Shown here: one piece after another, positions 11,422 to 29,428 of the stretch
How the letters are laid out: every line of letters starts with the position of its first letter
Position numbering within the stretch: position 1 is the stretch's first letter
Sequence record: MW512570.1
Reading direction: 5' to 3' (one strand)
Source of the DNA: Clostridioides phage CD1801
DNA length: 44,363 nucleotides
The notes under the pieces: model-generated
What the model saw: only the letters and a program-made list of their open reading frames with translations
Databases searched by the model: none
Told to the model about the DNA's origin: nothing
Translations under genes and position numbers: made by a program

Positions 11422-14256
11422 ATGTCAGCAGGTAGTAGAGCTTTAGAAGCTGTAATAAGAATGCGAGATGAAGCTAGTAGAACTTTAAGACAAGTTAGAG
11501 ATGCTACTAGAGCTCTTCAAAACCAAACAAATTCTACATCGCAAGCACAAGAAAGATTACAAGAACAATTTAGAAAGGTCAGTAATGCTGCTAAAATAGC
11601 AGGAGCAGGGATTGTGACTGGGATAGGTGCAGGACTTGTTTCTGCATCTAAGGCAGGGGCAGAATTTGAAACTGCAATGACAAAAACAAGCACTATGTTT
11701 GGAGACACTAAAGTAGATACAGAAAATTTGAATAATAAAGTATTAGAGTTATCCAAGAATACAGGAATTGCAGCATCTTCTATAGGAGAAAGTTTATACA
11801 ACGCTCTATCTTCGGGTATTCCTGTCACAAAAGATATGGGGTCAGCAATGGACTTTATGACTAAAAATGCTAAATTGTCTAAAGCAGGATTTACAGATAT
11901 AGACACAGCTTTAACAGCAACTGCAAAAGTGTTAAATGCCTATAAAATGGATGTATCAGAAACAGATAGAGTACACAAAGTTATGATGCAGACACAAAAT
12001 AAAGGTATCACTACAGTTGGAGAATTAGGAGCAACATTAGCACAAGTAACCCCAACTGCATCTGCAATGAGTTTCAGTTTTGAACAGGTAGGAGCATCAC
12101 TTGCTAACATGACAGCACAAGGGACACCTACAGCACAAGCCACGACACAATTAAATAGTTTGCTTGCTGAACTTGGAAAGACTGGCACAGTAGCAAATAA
12201 ATCTTTATTAAGTGCTACAAAAGGAACTAAATATGCAGGGAAATCTTTTAAAGAACTAATGCAAGCAGGAGTACCACTTAATGAAATTTTAAACCTCATG
12301 GATGGAAGTGCTAAAAAAAATAAAAAAAGTTTAATAGATATGTTTGGTAGTATTGAAGCAGGGAAAGCTGCACTTGCACTTTCTGGTCAAAATTCAGAGC
12401 AATATACTAATAATTTAAAAGCTATGTCTACACAAGCTGATGTTGTTTCAAGTGCATATGCAAAGATGTCTAATACATTAGAATCTAAAGTGGGGATACT
12501 AAAAGAAAGTTTTAAAAATCTGGGTATAGAGATATATAGTAAACTAAAAGAACCTCTTAAAAATGCAGCTGAAACAGGGATACAATGTTTAAGTGACTTA
12601 GATAAACAGTTTTCAAGTGGGTCACTTAAAGCAGGTATTTCGCAAATTGCACAATCTTTTGGAGATTTAACATCTACAATTATAAAAGTTGCAACAAAGG
12701 CATTGCCAACTATGATTAAGAGTCTTAGTTGGGTTCTGAAAAATGGACCTACTATTGCAAGTGTACTTGTGAGCATTAAAGTTGCTTCTATTATGACTAG
12801 TGCAGTTAAAAGTATTGTTGCACTAAAAAAAGCTTGGATTGCAGCCAAATTGGCAGTACGGGTATATATGGTTGGTATGGCAGAAGCTGGTACAGTGTTA
12901 AGTGGATTTCAGATTTTGGTAGGAGTTTTAACTAAAAATATGACTATAGCTCAAGCTAGGACAATGCTATTAGCAAAAGCAAGTGCATTATTAGGAGGTC
13001 CTATTGGTATTGCTATAGTAGCTATAACTGCTTTGGTAGCAGGGCTTGTAGTTTTATGGAACACAAATAAAGGTTTCAGAGATTTTGTTATAAATGCTTG
13101 GAATAATATAAAAGAAACAACAACAAAGGTTTGGGGTGGCATATGTAATTTTTTTACACAAACTATTCCACAAGCTTGGAATGATTTATGTACCAGTTTT
13201 TCAAATGCAGTGCAATGGTTTGGAGAAATGTGGAATAATATAAAACAAGCATTTATAAATGGCTGGAATGCTATTGTAGCTTTCTTTACTCAAACAATTC
13301 CAACATGGATAAATAATATTGGAGTGTGGTTTGGACAATTACCTGCAAAAATTGGTTATGGGCTAGGTTTTGCATTAGGTAAAATAATATCTTGGGGCAT
13401 TAGTGTATGGACCTACTTAGTTACAAATGTTCCGATTTGGATAAACAATGTTGTTACATTTTTTGCGCAGCTTCCTAATAAAATTTGGGTTTGGTTAGTA
13501 AGTACAGTTCAAAAAATAGGTCAATGGGGTATCGCAATGTTAACTTCTGCTCAAATATACACTTCAATGATTATAAATAATATAGTAACATTCTTTACTA
13601 CTTTACCTGGAAGGATTTGGACTTGGCTTACAAATACAGTTCAAAAAGTTGTTACTTGGGGAAGCCAAATGGCAACAAAGGGTAAAGAAGGAGCTAAAAA
13701 ATTAATAAATACAGTAGTGGATACATTAAAATCTTTACCTAAAAAGGTGATGGATATAGGAAAAAACATTGTCAAAGGACTCTGGAATGGTATCACAGGA
13801 GCTGGTGGCTGGTTAAAAGGGAAAGTAAATGACTTTGCAAAAGGCGTAATAGATGGATTTAAAAATGGATTTGGAGTACATTCCCCTTCTTGGAAATTAA
13901 GAGATTTAGTAGGTAGATTCCTTCCTTTAGGAATTTGGGAAGGTATAAAAGTAGAATTGCCAAGTTTGAAGAGTAATATTGACAATGTAGTTAGTAATTT
14001 AACTCAAAGAATGTACAAACCACAAGAAATCGAAGAAAGCGACTATACAAGAAAGTACAAAGAAGCTATAGCACAAAGAACTGAACAAAATACTATTAAT
14101 AAAACTGATAGTAAAACTACAAATAATAAAGAAGATAATAATATTACTATAAACATAAATTTAGGCGGTGTTACAGTTAAAGAAGAAGCTGACATAAATA
14201 AATTAACAAAAATGTTAGTAAGAGAAATAAAATTAGGAATAGCTGGTGGTGTTTAG
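11422..14256 (+). CDS. Tail tape measure protein.
   Basis: 944 aa. Ala/Gly-rich N-terminal helical region and W-rich repeats of type WxxxxxxFxxxxxxIW in the middle. Sits after the chaperone genes. Confidence 0.85.
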   Translation: MSAGSRALEAVIRMRDEASRTLRQVRDATRALQNQTNSTSQAQERLQEQFRKVSNAAKIAGAGIVTGIGAGLVSASKAGAEFETAMTKTSTMFGDTKVDTENLNNKVLELSKNTGIAASSIGESLYNALSSGIPVTKDMGSAMDFMTKNAKLSKAGFTDIDTALTATAKVLNAYKMDVSETDRVHKVMMQTQNKGITTVGELGATLAQVTPTASAMSFSFEQVGASLANMTAQGTPTAQATTQLNSLLAELGKTGTVANKSLLSATKGTKYAGKSFKELMQAGVPLNEILNLMDGSAKKNKKSLIDMFGSIEAGKAALALSGQNSEQYTNNLKAMSTQADVVSSAYAKMSNTLESKVGILKESFKNLGIEIYSKLKEPLKNAAETGIQCLSDLDKQFSSGSLKAGISQIAQSFGDLTSTIIKVATKALPTMIKSLSWVLKNGPTIASVLVSIKVASIMTSAVKSIVALKKAWIAAKLAVRVYMVGMAEAGTVLSGFQILVGVLTKNMTIAQARTMLLAKASALLGGPIGIAIVAITALVAGLVVLWNTNKGFRDFVINAWNNIKETTTKVWGGICNFFTQTIPQAWNDLCTSFSNAVQWFGEMWNNIKQAFINGWNAIVAFFTQTIPTWINNIGVWFGQLPAKIGYGLGFALGKIISWGISVWTYLVTNVPIWINNVVTFFAQLPNKIWVWLVSTVQKIGQWGIAMLTSAQIYTSMIINNIVTFFTTLPGRIWTWLTNTVQKVVTWGSQMATKGKEGAKKLINTVVDTLKSLPKKVMDIGKNIVKGLWNGITGAGGWLKGKVNDFAKGVIDGFKNGFGVHSPSWKLRDLVGRFLPLGIWEGIKVELPSLKSNIDNVVSNLTQRMYKPQEIEESDYTRKYKEAIAQRTEQNTINKTDSKTTNNKEDNNITININLGGVTVKEEADINKLTKMLVREIKLGIAGGV

Positions 14257-14326: not shown

Positions 14327-15079
14327 ATGGGATTATTTAGTAGAAAAGAAAAAATAGTAAAAGAACCATGTATAATTTGTGGAGCGGATACAGATGCTTT
14401 AAAAGTTTTAGATGGGTACTTGTGCAAAAATTGTCTCGAAAAATGTAGAGTTGAGATAGTTGCATCAGGTAAGCCAATAAAAAAATTGACTAAAAATGAT
14501 ATTTTAGAATGTATGGAAAATAGTAAAGATGAAGAAGGAAACTTCAGTAATAGCGAAATGGTAATGTTAGAATATATAGGTGGTCATCCACTTTTAAATA
14601 AAGAAGAGTTTCTATTTGTTGTAGTTAAAGATAATAAAATATTATTTAAAAAATCTGGAAAAAAATCAAATGATAAAATGATTGATGTTTTTGAAGTTTC
14701 TTATTCAGAAATAAAAAGTGTTTCTATTGAAAAAGAAGAGGAAGTTATTAGAAGATATACAGCAACTAGAATAGCTTTGTTTGGGCCATTTGCTCTTGCT
14801 ATGAAAAAAAAGACAGTAGATAAAAAGGAATACTTAATAGTAGAATGTAAAGATTTTATATTATCTTTTAAGAAAAATGACAATGTATGTGCAACTATTT
14901 ATAAAAAATTAGTTGAATATAGAAAAAACAATAAAGTTGAAGATGCTAATAATATAGCTGATAAAAATAATGTTATTGACCCACTAGAGAAAATAAAAAC
15001 ATTAAAAGAGTTATTAGACATGGGAGCAATAACAGAAGAAGAATTTAATGCTAAGAAAAAAGAATTATTAAACTTATAA
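14327..15079 (+). CDS. Moron: Zn-ribbon plus SHOCT-domain protein.
   Basis: N-terminal CIICGAD...CKNCLEKC. C-terminal LKELLDMGAITEEEFNAKKKELL matches the SHOCT motif. Has its own promoter and terminator, inserted between the tape-measure and tail genes. Confidence 0.5.
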   Translation: MGLFSRKEKIVKEPCIICGADTDALKVLDGYLCKNCLEKCRVEIVASGKPIKKLTKNDILECMENSKDEEGNFSNSEMVMLEYIGGHPLLNKEEFLFVVVKDNKILFKKSGKKSNDKMIDVFEVSYSEIKSVSIEKEEEVIRRYTATRIALFGPFALAMKKKTVDKKEYLIVECKDFILSFKKNDNVCATIYKKLVEYRKNNKVEDANNIADKNNVIDPLEKIKTLKELLDMGAITEEEFNAKKKELLNL

Positions 15080-15099
15080 CATTAGAATAATAATCAAAT

Positions 15100-15140
15100 A
15101 AAACATATAAAGCACTTGGATATTACATTGTTTCAAGTGC
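15100..15140 (+). terminator. Rho-independent terminator.
   Basis: Stem AAGCACTTG...CAAGTGCTT followed by a T-rich tract. Confidence 0.5.
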
Positions 15141-15174
15141 TTTATATGTTAAAAAATGATATAATATAAGTACA

Positions 15175-15334
15175 GAATTATATTAACAATGTGGTATGTA
15201 AAGAACAGTGTTGTAACAGCAGTTAAAATTTTCATTTTTATGTTTTATATTAACCAAGTGGTATATAAATACATTGTAGGTGGGTGATGAAACACCACAC
15301 ACATTGTTTTATATTAACTATGTGGGCTCAAAAC
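15175..15334 (+). CRISPR. Mini-CRISPR array of 3 repeats and 2 spacers, with C. difficile type I-B-like repeats. No cas genes are present.
   Basis: Repeats at 15175-15203, 15242-15270 and 15306-15334 approximate GTTTTATATTAACTAAGTGGTATGTAAAT. The terminal repeat is degenerate at its 3' end. The spacers are 38 nt and 35 nt. An AT-rich leader with TATAAT lies upstream. The repeats are more divergent from each other than in a typical array. Confidence 0.55.
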
Positions 15335-15349
15335 TAAATAAACAAAGGA

Positions 15350-15380
15350 AGCACTTACTTTTTGGTAGGTGCTTTTTATT
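15350..15380 (+). terminator. Rho-independent terminator after the array.
   Basis: Stem AGCACTTAC/GTAGGTGCT (one G-U pair) followed by TTTTTATT. Confidence 0.45.
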
Positions 15381-15540
15381 GAAAAAATAGAAAATAAAAT
15401 AAAAAGTACGATATAGGAAAAATATGTAAGAATTATATGTTATAATAATTGTAGCAAGAAGATGTAATCTACAATTTATAGAGTGGAGTTCATGTATCAA
15501 AAAATTATCCTCCCAACGCTAAGAAGGGAGGTGAATATAC

Positions 15541-15690
15541 GTGGATAATTTTTTACAAGGTGTACTAGCAAGTTTAGTTGCCAGTTTAATAGTTTACTTA
15601 ACTAGTAAATTATTTAAAAAAGTAAAAAGCCACTCCGGCCAGAGTGACTTTAGTTTTGAACTAAAGATTAAGTTCAAAAAGAAACACTAA
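15541..15690 (+). CDS. Type I toxin-antitoxin toxin-like small membrane peptide (49 aa).
   Basis: GTG start 7 nt after GGAGGTG. N-terminal hydrophobic helix GVLASLVASLIVYL and a Lys-rich C-terminus. Paralogous to the peptide at 28735-28878. The promoter ATGTTATAAT and the flanking inverted repeats are conserved between the two loci. Too short to appear in the ORF track. Confidence 0.6.
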   Translation: MDNFLQGVLASLVASLIVYLTSKLFKKVKSHSGQSDFSFELKIKFKKKH

Positions 15691-15822
15691 TTTACGAACT
15701 CCACTCTAGTCTTAAATAGATTGTAGTTCTTCTTGCTTTTATTATACCACAAATTAGAAAAAATATGCAAAGTACTTGTTTTAATAGCAAGTACTTTTTT
15801 GTGTGAAAAAGAAGGTGATTGA

Positions 15823-16014
15823 ATGAATAAAGATACAGAATTTATTGCTTGTTCAATGAGGTTAAAAATTTTGATACAAGCAAAAGAAAATTTAATTGAA
15901 GATATACATGAGTATTCAAACCACGAAGAAGATATTTCTAGGTACGAAAATTTGGATAAAGCTTTTGAAAAAACTATAATTGATGAAGCTAAGTTTTTAA
16001 TATCTTTAGAATAG
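15823..16014 (+). CDS. Hypothetical small protein.
   Basis: ORF with an SD (GAAGGTGATTGAATG). Confidence 0.35.
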   Translation: MNKDTEFIACSMRLKILIQAKENLIEDIHEYSNHEEDISRYENLDKAFEKTIIDEAKFLISLE

Positions 16015-16031
16015 ATATAGAGGTGATGTAG

Positions 16032-16667
16032 TTGGAAATGTGGATTAGACAAGCAAATGACACCTTCAGATTCCCTGTTTTTCCTTCAAGTTTTGAGATA
16101 AACAGTAAAGCAATAGTAAATACCTCAAATGTATTAAAATTAGGGGAAATTGCAGTGTTTGGAGGTGTAGGCTTAAGAACTACAGAAATATCTAGTTTCT
16201 TCCCCAGAAATGAAGCCAGTTACTGTGATTATACAGGCTTCCCATCACCATATGACTGTGTAAATAAAATTCAAAGATGGATGAATGAGGGTTTTATATT
16301 AAGATTTACAATTACAGAAACAAATATAAATTTTGAATGTATTATAACAGATTTTCAATATGAAGAAAAAGATTGCACAGGGGATGTGTATTTTACATTA
16401 AGTCTAAAAGAATATAGAAGGATACAAATATCTAAAGTAAGCATTAATAATGATGAAAAGTTATCTTCTGTAAAAGATGTGCCACTGACAAAAGGATTTG
16501 ATACTAAGCAAAAAACACATAAGGTAGGTAAAGGTGACAGCCTTTGGAGTTTGGCAAAAAAATATTATGGTAATGGGGATTTGTGGAAGAAGATTTATGA
16601 TGCAAATAAAAAATTAATTAAAAATCCAGATATTATAAAAGATGGTTGGGTTCTAGTAATTCCTTAA
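16032..16667 (+). CDS. XkdP-like LysM-domain tail protein.
   Basis: C-terminal LysM motif HKVGKGDSLWSLAKKYYGNGDLWKKIYDANK. Confidence 0.7.
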   Translation: MEMWIRQANDTFRFPVFPSSFEINSKAIVNTSNVLKLGEIAVFGGVGLRTTEISSFFPRNEASYCDYTGFPSPYDCVNKIQRWMNEGFILRFTITETNINFECIITDFQYEEKDCTGDVYFTLSLKEYRRIQISKVSINNDEKLSSVKDVPLTKGFDTKQKTHKVGKGDSLWSLAKKYYGNGDLWKKIYDANKKLIKNPDIIKDGWVLVIP

Positions 16668-27535: not shown

Positions 27536-27705
27536 TTTTAAGATTAACTACGAGGGATTTAAAATATTTTTTAATTTATTTAGAAATAATATTGTAATAA
27601 GAATTTTAAGATTAACTATGAGGGATTTAAATGTCAATTTAATTTATATAGAAATAATTTAATGGCAATTTTTTAGATTAACTATTTGGAAATAAAAACA
27701 GTGTA
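27536..27705 (+). repeat. Three tandem ~68-bp units with a 29-nt CRISPR-repeat-like core plus a 38-39-nt spacer-like segment.
   Basis: Cores TTTTAAGATTAACTACGAGGGATTTAAAA at 27536-27564, 27604-27632 and 27671 onward. Each is ~72-76% identical to the C. difficile I-B repeat, including the ATTAACTA core and TTTAAAT tail. The spacer-like parts are themselves similar to each other. The third unit is truncated at the terminator. Confidence 0.6.
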
Positions 27706-27728
27706 TTTAATAAATACACTGTTTTTTA
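27696..27728. terminator. Bidirectional rho-independent terminator between convergent genes.
   Basis: Perfect palindrome ACAGTGTATTTAATAAATACACTGT flanked by AAAA and TTTTTT. Confidence 0.7.
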
Positions 27729-28477: not shown

Positions 28478-28734
28478 ATTTTTATTCCTTTCATTTTATA
28501 TTTTCCATAATTAAGTTTAACATATTTAGTATATACCTATGTATATATATTTAAAACAATGTTTTTTATTGCAATATAGAATATATTGTATAAATAAAAA
28601 AAATGGAGAATAGATATTTGATAATTGTAAAATTATGTTATAATTAAAATGCAAGAATAATCTTGTGGAACTACAATCTAAGAGTGGAGCTTCATTTTCT
28701 ACATTCCATCCCTTAAAAGGAAGGAGGTGGAGAA

Positions 28735-28878
28735 ATGAGCGAATTTTTACTAGGAGTGTTAGCTAGTTTAACAGCTAGCTTTATTACATATATTATTTCC
28801 AGAAAAGTAAAAAGCCACTCTGGCAGGAGTGACTTTGAGCTTGATGTAAAAATCAAGTTTAATAAAAAACGACATTAA
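28735..28878 (+). CDS. Type I toxin-like small membrane peptide (47 aa), paralog of 15541-15690.
   Basis: ATG after GGAGGTGG. Sequence MSEFLLGVLASLTASFITYIISRKVKSHSGRSDFELDVKIKFNKKRH. The promoter and flanking inverted repeats are conserved with the first locus. Confidence 0.6.
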   Translation: MSEFLLGVLASLTASFITYIISRKVKSHSGRSDFELDVKIKFNKKRH

Positions 28879-29428
28879 TATTTAGTTAATGAAACTTCAC
28901 TCTAGGCTAATAGATTGTAGTTTCTTTTTTTGTTTTTGATACGAATTTACATCTTTATTATATCGCATTTTGAGAAAAAATAAAACTATGAATATTAGAA
29001 ATATATTTTATTTTATCTCTAAGTATATATATTATTAGCCACCTAAAAAACTTTCATAAAAACAAAAAGAACAATATCTTTTTGGCAACTGGCTGGCATA
29101 ATTTATAAGAATTTTATAAATCTTAGTCCCTATAGCTTTGCGTCACTAATTTTCTCTAGTTTTGCCGATTTAGTTTTGTTATACAACTAAAATAATACAA
29201 TAGAATTAGTTAATGTTCAACAAGGTTGTTTGAAAATTAAATAAATTTATAGGTATGAATAGTATTTATTCCTAAAAAGGAACAGAGTATTTAAAGGTCA
29301 AGGTAAGTTAGAATAGTATTGTGAACTAACATTTGATTATGCGAAATTCTATGAAACAGGAACCCTGTGACTTTAGTCATGGGAGGTTCAGTGTATATCG
29401 CGTATTTCAATTGTTATAAGTATTTTAT

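What the first reader, a model, noticed from the sequence alone, without database searches (positions are those of the whole stretch)
15420..15760. Type I toxin-like peptide locus adjacent to a phage-borne CRISPR mini-array.
A 49-aa peptide, not in the ORF track, has a strong SD, a hydrophobic N-helix and a Lys-rich tail. It sits right after a 3-repeat array of C. difficile I-B-like repeats. Co-localisation of type I TA modules with prophage CRISPR arrays has been described for C. difficile, and this fits that pattern. The toxin CDS is flanked by inverted repeats: TAGAGTGGAGTTCATG upstream is the reverse complement of GAACTCCACTCTAG downstream. This implies either a convergent antisense antitoxin RNA or hok-like 5'-3' fold-back of the toxin mRNA.
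Basis: partly seen in the sequence, partly recalled or inferred. Interest (0 to 1): 0.6.

Follow-up and report, generated by a model that had tools for sequence, protein, structure and literature searches.

The report
Known C. difficile phage toxin-antitoxin module
This is an ordinary member of the already described Clostridioides difficile prophage type I toxin-antitoxin family (a small membrane toxin held in check by an antisense RNA), sitting beside a decayed three-repeat CRISPR remnant in a phiCD119/phiCDHM19-type phage.

Summary
ORF 15541..15690 (+, GTG start, 49 aa) scores 90 bits against NCBIfam NF047374 CD_typeI_toxin, whose cut-off is 60. The window is 99-99.9% identical here to phages phiCDHM19 and phiCD119, whose records leave the stretch unannotated.

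Aligning 42 distinct homologous loci shows conservation of:
- the toxin promoter;
- an anti-SD/SD hairpin;
- a convergent antisense promoter (-10 at 15746..15741, minus strand);
- the antisense terminator (15651..15626), which lies inside the toxin's KVKSHS...SDF codons.

This matches the geometry mapped experimentally for RCd9/RCd10-CD2907.1/CD0956.2 (Maikova 2018).

It exists because the toxin and antitoxin promoters and 5' ends are inverted copies of each other.

The three CRISPR repeats are a leaderless, degenerate tail of an array that has 15 or more repeats in relatives.

The kind is already known. The family-wide fold-back is a small, untested addition. No transcripts or toxicity were tested here.

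The parts
15175..15334 (+). Degenerate three-repeat, two-spacer CRISPR remnant. Repeats: 15175-15203, 15242-15270, 15306-15334. Spacers: 15204-15241 and 15271-15305. It has no canonical leader.
   Evidence: Relatives carry up to 15 or more repeats that end at the same offset (-233/-235) from the toxin start codon, preceded by a leader ending TTATTTTGGG. That leader is absent here. Spacer 2 matches 30/32 nt in the antirepressor gene of the large siphophages LIBA6276, LIBA2945 and AR1086-1, with 5' flank ACA.
15350..15380 (+). Hairpin plus T-run after the last repeat (AGCACTTAC...GTAGGTGCTTTTTATT). It probably terminates array transcription ahead of the toxin promoter.
   Evidence: Read from the sequence. 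The terminator scan did not flag it. A similar sequence recurs at 15786-15802 (family D4).
15438..15446 (+). Toxin promoter, extended -10 box TGTTATAAT. The -35 box is poor.
   Evidence: TATAAT is conserved upstream of AGCAAGAAGA in the homologs whose aligned stretch reaches that far. The published 5' UTRs of 83-88 nt (PMC5961336) place the transcription start at 15453-15458.
15453..15737 (+). Predicted toxin mRNA, about 285 nt, running from AGCAAGAAGA to TCTTCTTGCT. Read-through could reach the terminator at 15769-15803.
   Evidence: In strain 630 the toxin mRNA 3' end maps to the antitoxin transcription start position (Table 1 of PMC5961336). The equivalent span is 281-306 nt in homologs, against 298 and 306 nt published.
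15453..15491 (+). 5' arm of the predicted 5'-3' fold-back (GCAAGAAGA, CUACAAUUU, AUAGAGUGGAGUUC).
15696..15737 (+). 3' arm of the fold-back. On the minus strand the same bases encode the first 40 or so nt of the antitoxin RNA.
15509..15531 (+). Anti-SD CCUCCC (15509-15514) paired with the SD GGGAGG (15526-15531).
   Evidence: P(unpaired) of the SD is 0.04 or less in every context folded. The pairing is kept in 34 of 42 homologs by sequence identity, with no covariation. Ribosome-binding-site sequestration is reported for the family in PMC5961336.
15541..15690 (+). Toxin CDS, 49 aa, GTG start: MDNFLQGVLASLVASLIVYLTSKLFKKVKSHSGQSDFSFELKIKFKKKH.
15741..15770 (-). Antitoxin promoter on the minus strand: -35 TTGCAT (15770..15765), an 18-nt spacer, and extended -10 TGGTATAAT (15749..15741).
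   Evidence: TTATTATA(C/T)CA is invariant or nearly so in 42 homologs.
15616..15737 (-). Predicted antitoxin RNA (RCd9/RCd10 homolog), about 120 nt. It is antisense to the last 75 nt of the toxin CDS and the whole 3' UTR.
   Evidence: The published short form is 134 nt for a locus with a longer CDS and 3' UTR.
15613..15651 (-). Antitoxin intrinsic terminator: stem 15651..15626, then a U-tract. It is encoded inside the toxin codons for KKVKSHS...SDF.
   Evidence: 11-bp stem, 4 GC pairs; kept in 33 of 33 homologs, with one compensatory GC/AU pair in 13 sequences and one-sided changes that read as U.G wobbles on the minus strand.
15769..15803 (+). Plus-strand terminator-like hairpin and T-run that closes the cassette before the next gene (15823..).

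Best explanation
The locus is a type I toxin-antitoxin module of the C. difficile prophage family (the CD2907.1/CD0956.2-RCd9/RCd10 type), carried in the tail-gene region of a phiCD119/phiCDHM19-type phage.

Predicted transcripts (coordinates by homology):
- An extended -10 promoter (15438-15446) gives a toxin mRNA of about 285 nt starting near 15453. It has an 88-nt 5' UTR in which CCUCCC pairs with the Shine-Dalgarno sequence.
- The mRNA encodes a 49-aa protein with one transmembrane helix and a Lys-rich tail.
- A convergent promoter (-10 at 15746..15741, minus strand) gives an antisense RNA of about 120 nt. It ends at a terminator (15651..15626) that lies inside the toxin coding sequence.
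- The antisense RNA is fully complementary to the 3' 120 nt or so of the toxin mRNA and, as shown for RCd9/RCd10, should neutralise it.

Predicted fold-back:
- The two promoters and 5' ends are inverted copies of each other. The toxin mRNA's first 39 or so nt are therefore complementary to its last 42 or so nt, and the mRNA is predicted to close into a 32-bp panhandle.
- I infer that the panhandle shields both ends and keeps the mRNA stable but poorly translated.
- I also infer that the antitoxin, whose 5' end copies the toxin's 5' end, takes over the 3' arm. This would free the toxin 5' end for RNase J/Y attack and create an RNase III substrate.

Likely biological role: prophage maintenance by killing or arresting cells that lose the phage, as shown for phiCD630-1.

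The neighbouring three CRISPR repeats are the leaderless, mutated distal end of an array that is long in relatives.

Shown here: family membership, conservation of all RNA elements, and the predicted folds. Inferred only: transcripts, toxicity, rescue and the fold-back mechanism.
For: - Family membership: NF047374 gives 90 bits against a cut-off of 60. Homologs are named as type I TA toxins. The toxin is 94% identical to a strain 630 protein, Q18BT8.
- Source: the window is 99-99.9% identical to phiCDHM19 and phiCD119 over this stretch.
- Conserved RNA elements: the toxin 5' end, the anti-SD/SD pair, the antisense -10 box and the antisense terminator are conserved in 42 distinct loci whose toxin sequences diverge to about 56% identity.
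- Antisense terminator: it has a compensatory GC/AU pair. Its U.G wobbles pair only on the minus strand.
- Fold-back: MFE -88.6 kcal/mol, z = -7.8. Across 42 loci 96.2% of cells are paired, against 37-49% when partners are slid. Three pairs show compensatory changes. On the toxin strand there are 71 G.U cells against 15 A.C cells.
- Effect of blocking the 3' region: blocking the 3' 122 nt raises P(unpaired) of the first 9 nt from 0.03 to 0.60 and buries the start codon, 0.24 to 0.004.
- Published experiments on homologs: convergent transcripts of 298 nt and 134/283 nt, with the toxin 3' end at the antitoxin start position; toxicity and rescue; RNase III cleavage of the duplex; stabilisation of the toxin mRNA on RNase J/Y depletion (PMC5961336). 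[quoted passage not shown]
- A second module in the same window shows the same design.
Against: - No transcript, toxicity or rescue data exist for this phage's copy.
- The start codon is GTG, while all 39 aligned loci of other lineages use ATG (L003, the same lineage as the window, also has GTG). This copy could be attenuated.
- The scanning tool flagged neither promoter. Both rest on extended -10 boxes and on homology.
- Support for the fold-back is mostly sequence conservation. The compensatory changes sit in one clade, so they amount to one or two events. The G.U excess comes mainly from two alignment columns. An inverted DNA duplication of promoter regions would give the same pattern without any RNA-level selection.
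- The SD hairpin shows no covariation.
- Published 3' ends in strain 630 may reflect processing rather than termination. The real 3' end here could be the terminator at about 15803.
Confidence: 0.85

Rival explanations
1. The module is a decaying, non-functional relic. The weak GTG start and the adjacent eroded CRISPR remnant would indicate a locus drifting to inactivity, with the inverted repeat merely left over from an old promoter duplication.
For: - GTG is unique to this lineage among 42 aligned loci.
- All three repeats are mutated and the leader is missing.
- Relatives do show decay: a frameshifted 35-aa toxin in L031, the 35- and 46-aa variants P0012 and P0013 with divergent C-termini, and a single remaining repeat in L001.
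- Maikova 2018 reports R20291 loci with mutated toxins where only the antitoxin is detected.
Against: - The ORF is intact and scores well above the family cut-off.
- This exact protein occurs on 725 public contigs.
- The SD, anti-SD, both -10 boxes and the antisense terminator all match the family consensus.
- GTG is a usable bacterial start codon.
Confidence: 0.1
2. The inverted repeat acts at the DNA or promoter level rather than as an RNA fold-back. The shared AGCAAGAAGA...TAGAGTGGAGTTC sequence downstream of both -10 boxes would be a common initial transcribed region or a protein-binding site that co-regulates toxin and antitoxin, for example through the SigA/SigB dual promoters reported for the family. 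The 5'-3' complementarity would then be a by-product.
For: - Both arms begin right after the two -10 boxes and are 72% identical overall.
- Most helix columns are invariant, so conservation of sequence explains most of the pairing.
- Maikova 2018 notes conserved sequences and SigA and SigB elements at both promoters.
Against: - Where the arms differ, the changes preserve pairing on the toxin strand (71 G.U against 15 A.C cells).
- The divergent clade (L019-L024, L034) changes both arms together at three pairs.
- In strain 630 the toxin mRNA 3' end maps exactly to the end of the repeat, so both arms are present in one RNA.
- The two explanations do not exclude each other.
Confidence: 0.25
3. 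The small ORF is a phage membrane protein with another role, such as a holin-like or superinfection-exclusion peptide. It would be expressed in the lytic cycle and not controlled by an antisense RNA.
For: - It lies in the late (tail) gene region, between a SHOCT-domain protein and a Dit-like/LysM tail protein.
- Type I toxins resemble holins in architecture (review PMC6563280).
Against: - It has its own promoter, and terminator-like hairpins lie on both sides (15350-15380, read from the sequence; 15769-15803; promoter).
- The convergent promoter and an in-CDS antisense terminator are conserved, with minus-strand-specific wobbles.
- It is an equivalog-level match to a family whose members were shown to be antisense-controlled toxins.
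Confidence: 0.04

Closest known systems
CD2907.1-RCd9 / CD0956.2-RCd10 (and CD2517.1-RCd8) type I TA modules of C. difficile 630, next to CRISPR arrays in prophages phiCD630-1 and phiCD630-2 (Maikova et al. 2018, PMC5961336)
   Same: - Same toxin family (NF047374).
- Same layout: long 5' UTR with a sequestered SD; convergent antisense RNA with its own extended -10 promoter; the antisense terminator inside the toxin CDS; toxin and antitoxin start regions as inverted copies.
- Prophage location, on the same strand as a CRISPR array and next to it.
   Different: - 49 aa instead of 50-53.
- GTG start.
- Shorter 3' UTR, so the predicted RNAs are about 285 and 120 nt against 298 and 134 nt.
- The adjacent array is reduced to three mutated repeats without a leader.
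- Nothing has been tested experimentally for this copy.
CD0977.1-RCd11 / CD2889-RCd12 (Peltier et al. 2020, PMC7699646)
   Same: A second module in this window (toxin 28735..28878, 47 aa) matches this 47-aa class. Its exact sequence carries a UniRef name with representative Q183X5_CLOD6, a strain 630 protein. This supports the published picture of several type I TA modules per prophage acting in prophage maintenance.
   Different: It is a paralogous module about 13 kb away, not the finding itself. Equating it with CD0977.1 rests on length and strain name only.
bsrG/SR4 and txpA/RatA of Bacillus subtilis prophages and the skin element
   Same: Convergent transcripts that overlap at their 3' ends and a prophage location. 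For SR4, antitoxin binding at the 3' end both promotes decay and tightens sequestration of the ribosome-binding site at a distance. predicts a similar effect here (start codon P(unpaired) 0.24 to 0.004).
   Different: There is no detectable sequence relationship: Pfam gives no hit and the published comparison finds no homology. The terminal panhandle is not a described feature of those systems, to my knowledge.
hok/sok (plasmid R1) and aapA1/IsoA1 (Helicobacter pylori)
   Same: A stable toxin mRNA is kept inert by a long-distance 5'-3' interaction and a sequestered SD.
   Different: In those systems the antisense RNA targets the 5' region, and 3' trimming activates translation. hok also needs the overlapping mok reading frame. 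Here the antisense RNA covers the 3' end, no leader ORF is evident, and the SD is blocked by a local hairpin that does not depend on the fold-back.

Membership tests
C. difficile type I toxin family (NCBIfam NF047374 CD_typeI_toxin; group A of Maikova 2018) | Toxin sequence passes the curated family model | tested here: met
   90 bits against a cut-off of 60, E = 9e-26, covering profile positions 1-50 of 51.
C. difficile type I toxin family (NCBIfam NF047374 CD_typeI_toxin; group A of Maikova 2018) | Protein under 60 aa with a hydrophobic N-terminal helix and a Lys-rich C-terminus | tested here: met
   49 aa. The Kyte-Doolittle 19-residue maximum is 1.8 (residues 4-22). The last 27 residues hold 9 Lys against 2 acidic residues.
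C. difficile type I toxin family (NCBIfam NF047374 CD_typeI_toxin; group A of Maikova 2018) | Convergent antisense gene with its own promoter and terminator overlapping the toxin 3' end (sequence elements) | tested here: met
   Extended -10 box at 15749..15741 and terminator at 15651..15626 on the minus strand, both conserved in homologs. The terminator shows a compensatory pair and strand-specific wobbles.
C. difficile type I toxin family (NCBIfam NF047374 CD_typeI_toxin; group A of Maikova 2018) | The antisense RNA is actually transcribed and overlaps the toxin mRNA | not testable with these tools
   No expression data were available. Shown only for the strain 630 homologs.
C. difficile type I toxin family (NCBIfam NF047374 CD_typeI_toxin; group A of Maikova 2018) | Toxin overexpression arrests growth and the antisense RNA rescues it | not testable with these tools
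   Shown for CD2907.1, CD0956.2, CD2517.1, CD0977.1, CD0904.1 and CD0956.3 (PMC5961336; PMC7699646), not for this copy.
C. difficile type I toxin family (NCBIfam NF047374 CD_typeI_toxin; group A of Maikova 2018) | Ribosome-binding site sequestered in the long 5' UTR | tested here: met
   Predicted CCUCCC:GGGAGG pairing, with P(unpaired) of the SD at 0.04 or less. This is a thermodynamic prediction only, and there is no covariation.
CRISPR-associated TA arrangement (Maikova 2018) | Toxin gene immediately next to a C. difficile I-B CRISPR array | tested here: met
   The last repeat ends 207 nt before the start codon. The same -233/-235 offset recurs in relatives with 5 to 15 or more repeats.
Functional C. 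difficile type I-B CRISPR array | Transcribed leader of about 170-200 nt with a conserved motif directly upstream of repeat 1 (Boudry 2015, PMC4556805) | tested here: not met
   Relatives end their leader with TTATTTTGGG or TTATTTTGAG. The window has ...TGATATAATATAAGTACA, about 24 nt after the hairpin at 15102-15150.
Functional C. difficile type I-B CRISPR array | Repeats matching the consensus closely enough for processing | tested here: inconclusive
   4, 3 and 5 mismatches out of 29. Rfam CRISPR-DR14 scores of 29-37 bits fall below the gathering score of 45. Processing cannot be judged from sequence.
Functional C. difficile type I-B CRISPR array | Spacers matching foreign elements with a CCW PAM | tested here: inconclusive
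   Spacer 2 matches 30/32 nt in three large C. difficile siphophages, but the 5' flank is ACA. Spacer 1 has no match outside phiCD119 and phiCDHM19.
hok/sok-type fold-back regulation | Long-distance 5'-3' pairing in the full-length toxin mRNA | tested here: met
   A 32-bp interrupted helix is predicted, z = -7.8, and kept in 42 loci. It has not been probed experimentally.
hok/sok-type fold-back regulation | Antisense RNA targets the 5' leader or an overlapping leader ORF (mok), and 3' trimming activates translation | tested here: not met
   The predicted antisense RNA covers 15616-15737, the 3' end. Removing the 3' arm in silico does not free the SD (P(unpaired) 0.001). It is therefore not filed as hok/sok.

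The most novel reading that the evidence does not exclude
Across this toxin family the toxin mRNA may be a closed 'panhandle': its 5' and 3' ends pair over about 32 bp because the toxin and antitoxin genes begin with the same sequence in inverted orientation. The antitoxin's 5' end would then mimic the toxin's 5' end and act by strand displacement. By taking the 3' arm it would open the panhandle, expose the toxin 5' end to RNase J/Y, and let the freed 5' arm bury the start codon. I did not find this described in the held texts of the primary papers, where the structure predictions are 'data not shown'.
Probability: 0.35. Interest if true: 0.4.

Novelty: already known. Interest (0 to 1): 0.2.

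Why it matters
It matters little as a discovery. The family, its link to prophage CRISPR arrays and its presence in all sequenced C. difficile phages are already published (PMC5961336, PMC7699646).

There are three modest practical points:
- The deposited phiCD119 and phiCDHM19 records leave this module unannotated. Phage-therapy or prophage-curing work with these phages should expect at least two addiction-type modules in them.
- The adjacent CRISPR repeats are a decayed remnant. This may be why the 2018 phage survey reported CRISPR co-localisation only for phi027.
- The family-wide terminal complementarity offers a concrete, testable explanation for the long half-life of the toxin mRNA and for how a 3'-binding antisense RNA could act on it.

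Tried and rejected
- Rfam, permissive scan of 14500-16500: no family for the antisense RNA, only sub-threshold CRISPR-DR14 hits and chance matches.
- Pfam: no hit for the toxin.
- Genome-contig scan with the single peptide: one locus only, so the strain 630 coordinates of the RACE-mapped ends could not be transferred directly. Transcript ends are therefore inferred from the conserved -10 boxes and published lengths. The equivalent spans in homologs are 281-306 nt and could not be matched one-to-one to CD0956.2 or CD2517.1.
- Supplementary files: none are held for Maikova 2018, and those of Peltier 2020 do not contain the phage toxin sequences. I could not confirm that this exact GTG-start ORF appears in their Figure 6.
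- The promoter scan did not flag either TA promoter; its rule needs a better -35 box.
- Covariation test of the SD hairpin: none found. It is supported by conservation and folding only.
- The idea that loss of the 3' arm frees the SD, as in hok, was rejected. In silico truncation or blocking leaves the SD paired.
- Spacer 1 has no target in the phage collection.

Full report
**What is in the sequence**

The region 15050-15850 lies in the tail-gene block of a phage. Upstream are a tape-measure protein (11422..14256, PF10145) and a SHOCT-domain protein (14327..15079). Downstream is a Dit-like/LysM tail protein (16032..16667). Over 15100-15820 the window is 99.9% identical to Clostridium phage phiCDHM19 and 99.0% identical to phiCD119. 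Neither record annotates anything under the match.

- It has a GTG start and encodes 49 aa: MDNFLQGVLASLVASLIVYLTSKLFKKVKSHSGQSDFSFELKIKFKKKH.
- GGGAGG lies at 15526-15531, 9 nt before the start codon.
- Residues 4-22 form a hydrophobic segment (19-residue Kyte-Doolittle mean 1.8).
- The last 27 residues hold 9 Lys and 2 acidic residues.

Three 29-nt repeats lie at 15175-15203, 15242-15270 and 15306-15334. They have 4, 3 and 5 mismatches to the C. difficile I-B consensus. Rfam CRISPR-DR14 matches all three below its gathering score.

The inverted repeat is 13 nt perfect (15479-15491 / 15696-15708). On its own this is weak evidence: a perfect repeat of that length or longer occurs in 3.5% of shuffles. 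It is, however, one segment of a longer complementarity described below.

**Identity of the peptide**

The peptide scores 90 bits against NCBIfam NF047374.1 'CD_typeI_toxin', an equivalog model with a cut-off of 60. Pfam has no match. Database homologs are all from Clostridioides, and many are named 'type I toxin-antitoxin system toxin'. The exact sequence occurs on 725 public contigs. Its 90% cluster includes the strain 630 protein Q18BT8, which is 94% identical.

**The antisense gene**

I collected one chromosomal locus and 80 viral-contig loci that encode relatives. I aligned 42 distinct versions of the module, with toxins down to about 56% identity. The following are conserved throughout:
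- The toxin 5' end, TAGCAAGAAGATGTAATCTACAATTTATAGAGTGGAGTTCAT, preceded by TATAAT.
- The anti-SD/SD pair, kept in 34 of 42 loci.
- On the other side, GAACT(C/T)CACTCTA...AATAGATTGTAGTTCTTCTTGCTTTTATTATA(C/T)CACA. Read on the minus strand this gives an extended -10 promoter (TGGTATAAT, 15749..15741, with TTGCAT 18 nt upstream) followed by AGCAAGAAGAACTACAATCTATT...TAGAGTGGAGTTC.

The minus strand also carries a terminator: stem 15651..15626 followed by UUUUUACUUUUUU. It is preserved in all 33 sequences tested. One pair switches between GC and AU in 13 sequences. The one-sided changes read as U.G on the minus strand but would be C.A on the plus strand. This points to selection on a minus-strand RNA of about 120 nt (about 15737 to 15616).

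The terminator is built from the toxin codons for KKVKSHS and SDF. This probably explains why those residues are invariant in the protein alignment.

The layout matches what Maikova et al. mapped by 5'/3' RACE and northern blots in strain 630 (PMC5961336):
- a 298-nt toxin mRNA with an 83-nt 5' UTR;
- antitoxin RNAs of 134 and 283 nt;
- a toxin 3' end that coincides with the antitoxin start position.

The window's shorter CDS and 3' UTR account for the shorter predicted RNAs. The A-to-C span is 284 nt here and 281-306 nt in relatives.

**The inverted repeat**

The toxin and antitoxin promoters and initial transcribed regions are inverted copies of each other. As a result, the first 39 or so nt of the toxin mRNA (15453-15491) are complementary to its last 42 or so nt (15696-15737).

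- Folding. Folding 15454-15751 gives three terminal helices totalling 32 bp. The MFE is -88.6 kcal/mol against -52.3 +/- 4.7 for shuffles (z = -7.8).
- Conservation. On the 42-locus alignment 96.2% of cells pair, against 37-49% when the partners are slid by 1-3 columns. Three pairs show double changes, all in the L019-L024/L034 clade.
- Strand bias. Non-Watson-Crick cells are G.U 71 times and A.C 15 times on the toxin strand, and the reverse on the antisense strand.
- Limits. This favours an RNA structure in the toxin mRNA, but it is not strong evidence. Most columns are invariant. The compensatory changes represent one or two events. Two columns supply most of the G.U cells. A promoter duplication maintained at the DNA level would look similar.

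I found no mention of this terminal pairing in the held texts of the 2018 paper, the 2019 review or the 2020 paper. They describe only ribosome-binding-site sequestration and possible loop-loop contacts, with structures 'data not shown'.

**How it most likely works**

Shown for homologs and inferred for this copy:
- The toxin is a membrane peptide whose overproduction stops growth.
- The antisense RNA pairs with the toxin mRNA and prevents this.
- RNase III cleaves the duplex.
- RNase J and RNase Y contribute most to toxin mRNA decay.
- Such modules stabilise phiCD630-1 after excision.

In silico for this sequence:

| State | SD unpaired | First 9 nt unpaired | Start codon unpaired |
|---|---|---|---|
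| Full-length mRNA | 0.04 | 0.03 | 0.24 |
| 3' 122 nt blocked, as if bound by the antitoxin | 0.001 | 0.60 | 0.004 |

My reading is that the panhandle protects the ends of an intrinsically long-lived, poorly translated mRNA. The antitoxin would take the 3' arm, exposing the 5' end to decay and tightening the translational block. This resembles SR4/bsrG more than hok/sok. This step is an inference from thermodynamic prediction.

**The CRISPR repeats**

In relatives with the same geometry, the last, degenerate repeat sits 233-235 nt before the toxin start codon. Those arrays run to 5, 6, 10 or at least 15 repeats. They are preceded by a leader ending TTATTTTGGG or TTATTTTGAG.

The window keeps only the last three positions (-366, -299, -235), and all three are mutated. 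Instead of a leader it has about 24 nt (...TGATATAATATAAGTACA) after the hairpin at 15102-15150. One chromosomal relative (L001) keeps a single repeat. The 'mini-array' is therefore a leaderless remnant.

The extended -10-like TGATATAAT (15157-15165) could still drive a short transcript ending at the hairpin and T-run at 15350-15380. That is untested.

Spacer 2 matches 30 of 32 nt in the antirepressor gene of three roughly 130-kb C. difficile siphophages, with a non-canonical ACA flank. Spacer 1 has no target in the phage collection.

Maikova et al. wrote that among known phages co-localisation with CRISPR was detected only in phi027. Degenerate remnants such as this one may simply have escaped array finders. 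Later surveys do list one small array in phiCDHM19-like prophages.

**Comparison with what is known, and novelty**

The locus passes every sequence-level criterion of the C. difficile type I TA family. It fails none that could be tested. Expression and toxicity could not be tested.

It is not a hok/sok member. The antisense RNA covers the 3' end, there is no leader ORF, and removing the 3' arm does not free the SD.

Peltier et al. 2020 report toxin homologs in all sequenced C. difficile phages, including the phiCD119-like group. I therefore rate the finding as already known. The additions are minor: unannotated coordinates for this phage, the remnant nature of the array, the GTG start, and the family-wide terminal complementarity.

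**Verdict**

Novelty is low and interest is 0.2. The most novel reading still open is the panhandle with strand displacement, at probability about 0.35.

Noticed in passing
window 28636-28960 (+), toxin CDS 28735..28878: A second type I TA module. The 47-aa toxin is MSEFLLGVLASLTASFITYIISRKVKSHSGRSDFELDVKIKFNKKRH (NF047374 82 bits, cut-off 60). Its exact sequence is on 992 public contigs and carries a UniRef name with a strain 630 representative (Q183X5), which fits the 47-aa CD0977.1/CD2889 class. It has the same design: TGTTATAAT promoter, CTACAATCTAAGAGTGGAGCTTC in the 5' UTR, and the inverted copy at 28892-28920. Its predicted mRNA fold has z = -7.9.
   Followed up: partly
window 27538-27700 (+): A second degenerate three-repeat CRISPR-like remnant with a 66-nt period (TTTTAAGATTAACTACGAGGGATTTAAAAT / TTTTAAGATTAACTATGAGGGATTTAAAT / TTTTTAGATTAACTATTTGGAAATAAAAAC). 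A hairpin follows at about 27698-27726. It lies about 1 kb upstream of the second TA module.
   Followed up: no
window 15271-15305 (spacer 2); L083: Spacer 2 matches 30/32 nt inside the 'prophage antirepressor' gene of the large siphophages LIBA6276, LIBA2945 and AR1086-1. The 5' flank is ACA rather than the CCA/CCT PAM. Spacer 1 (15204-15241) matches nothing outside phiCD119 and phiCDHM19.
   Followed up: partly
window 15541-15543: The toxin starts with GTG in this lineage (window, L002, L003), whereas the 39 aligned loci of other lineages start with ATG. This may be an attenuating change.
   Followed up: no
window 15613-15651: Dual coding. The invariant toxin residues KKVKSHS...S-D/G-F/W are encoded by the same bases that form the antisense RNA's terminator stem and U-tract. 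This probably explains why they are invariant.
   Followed up: partly
window 15102-15150: A perfect 17-bp hairpin with a 15-nt loop lies between the SHOCT-protein gene and repeat 1. A T-rich run follows it only on the minus strand, so it may stop leftward (antisense) transcription from entering the tail genes.
   Followed up: no
window 15350-15366 and 15786-15802: The terminator-like sequences on either side of the TA cassette resemble each other (AGCACTTACTTTTTGGT / AGCAAGTACTTTTTTGT, 82%), as if the cassette were bracketed by related terminators.
   Followed up: no
L031 (551-698), L001 (1501-1641), proteins P0012 and P0013: Relatives show decay of the same locus: a frameshifted 35-aa toxin (L031), the 35- and 46-aa variants P0012 and P0013 with divergent C-termini, and a chromosomal copy with only one CRISPR repeat left (L001).
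   Followed up: no
loci L026, L036, L075, L078 and others: Besides 'array then toxin', the family has a second arrangement. The toxin lies about 290-460 nt upstream of the first repeat of a long array on the same strand, so the TA module sits in or just before the CRISPR leader.
   Followed up: no
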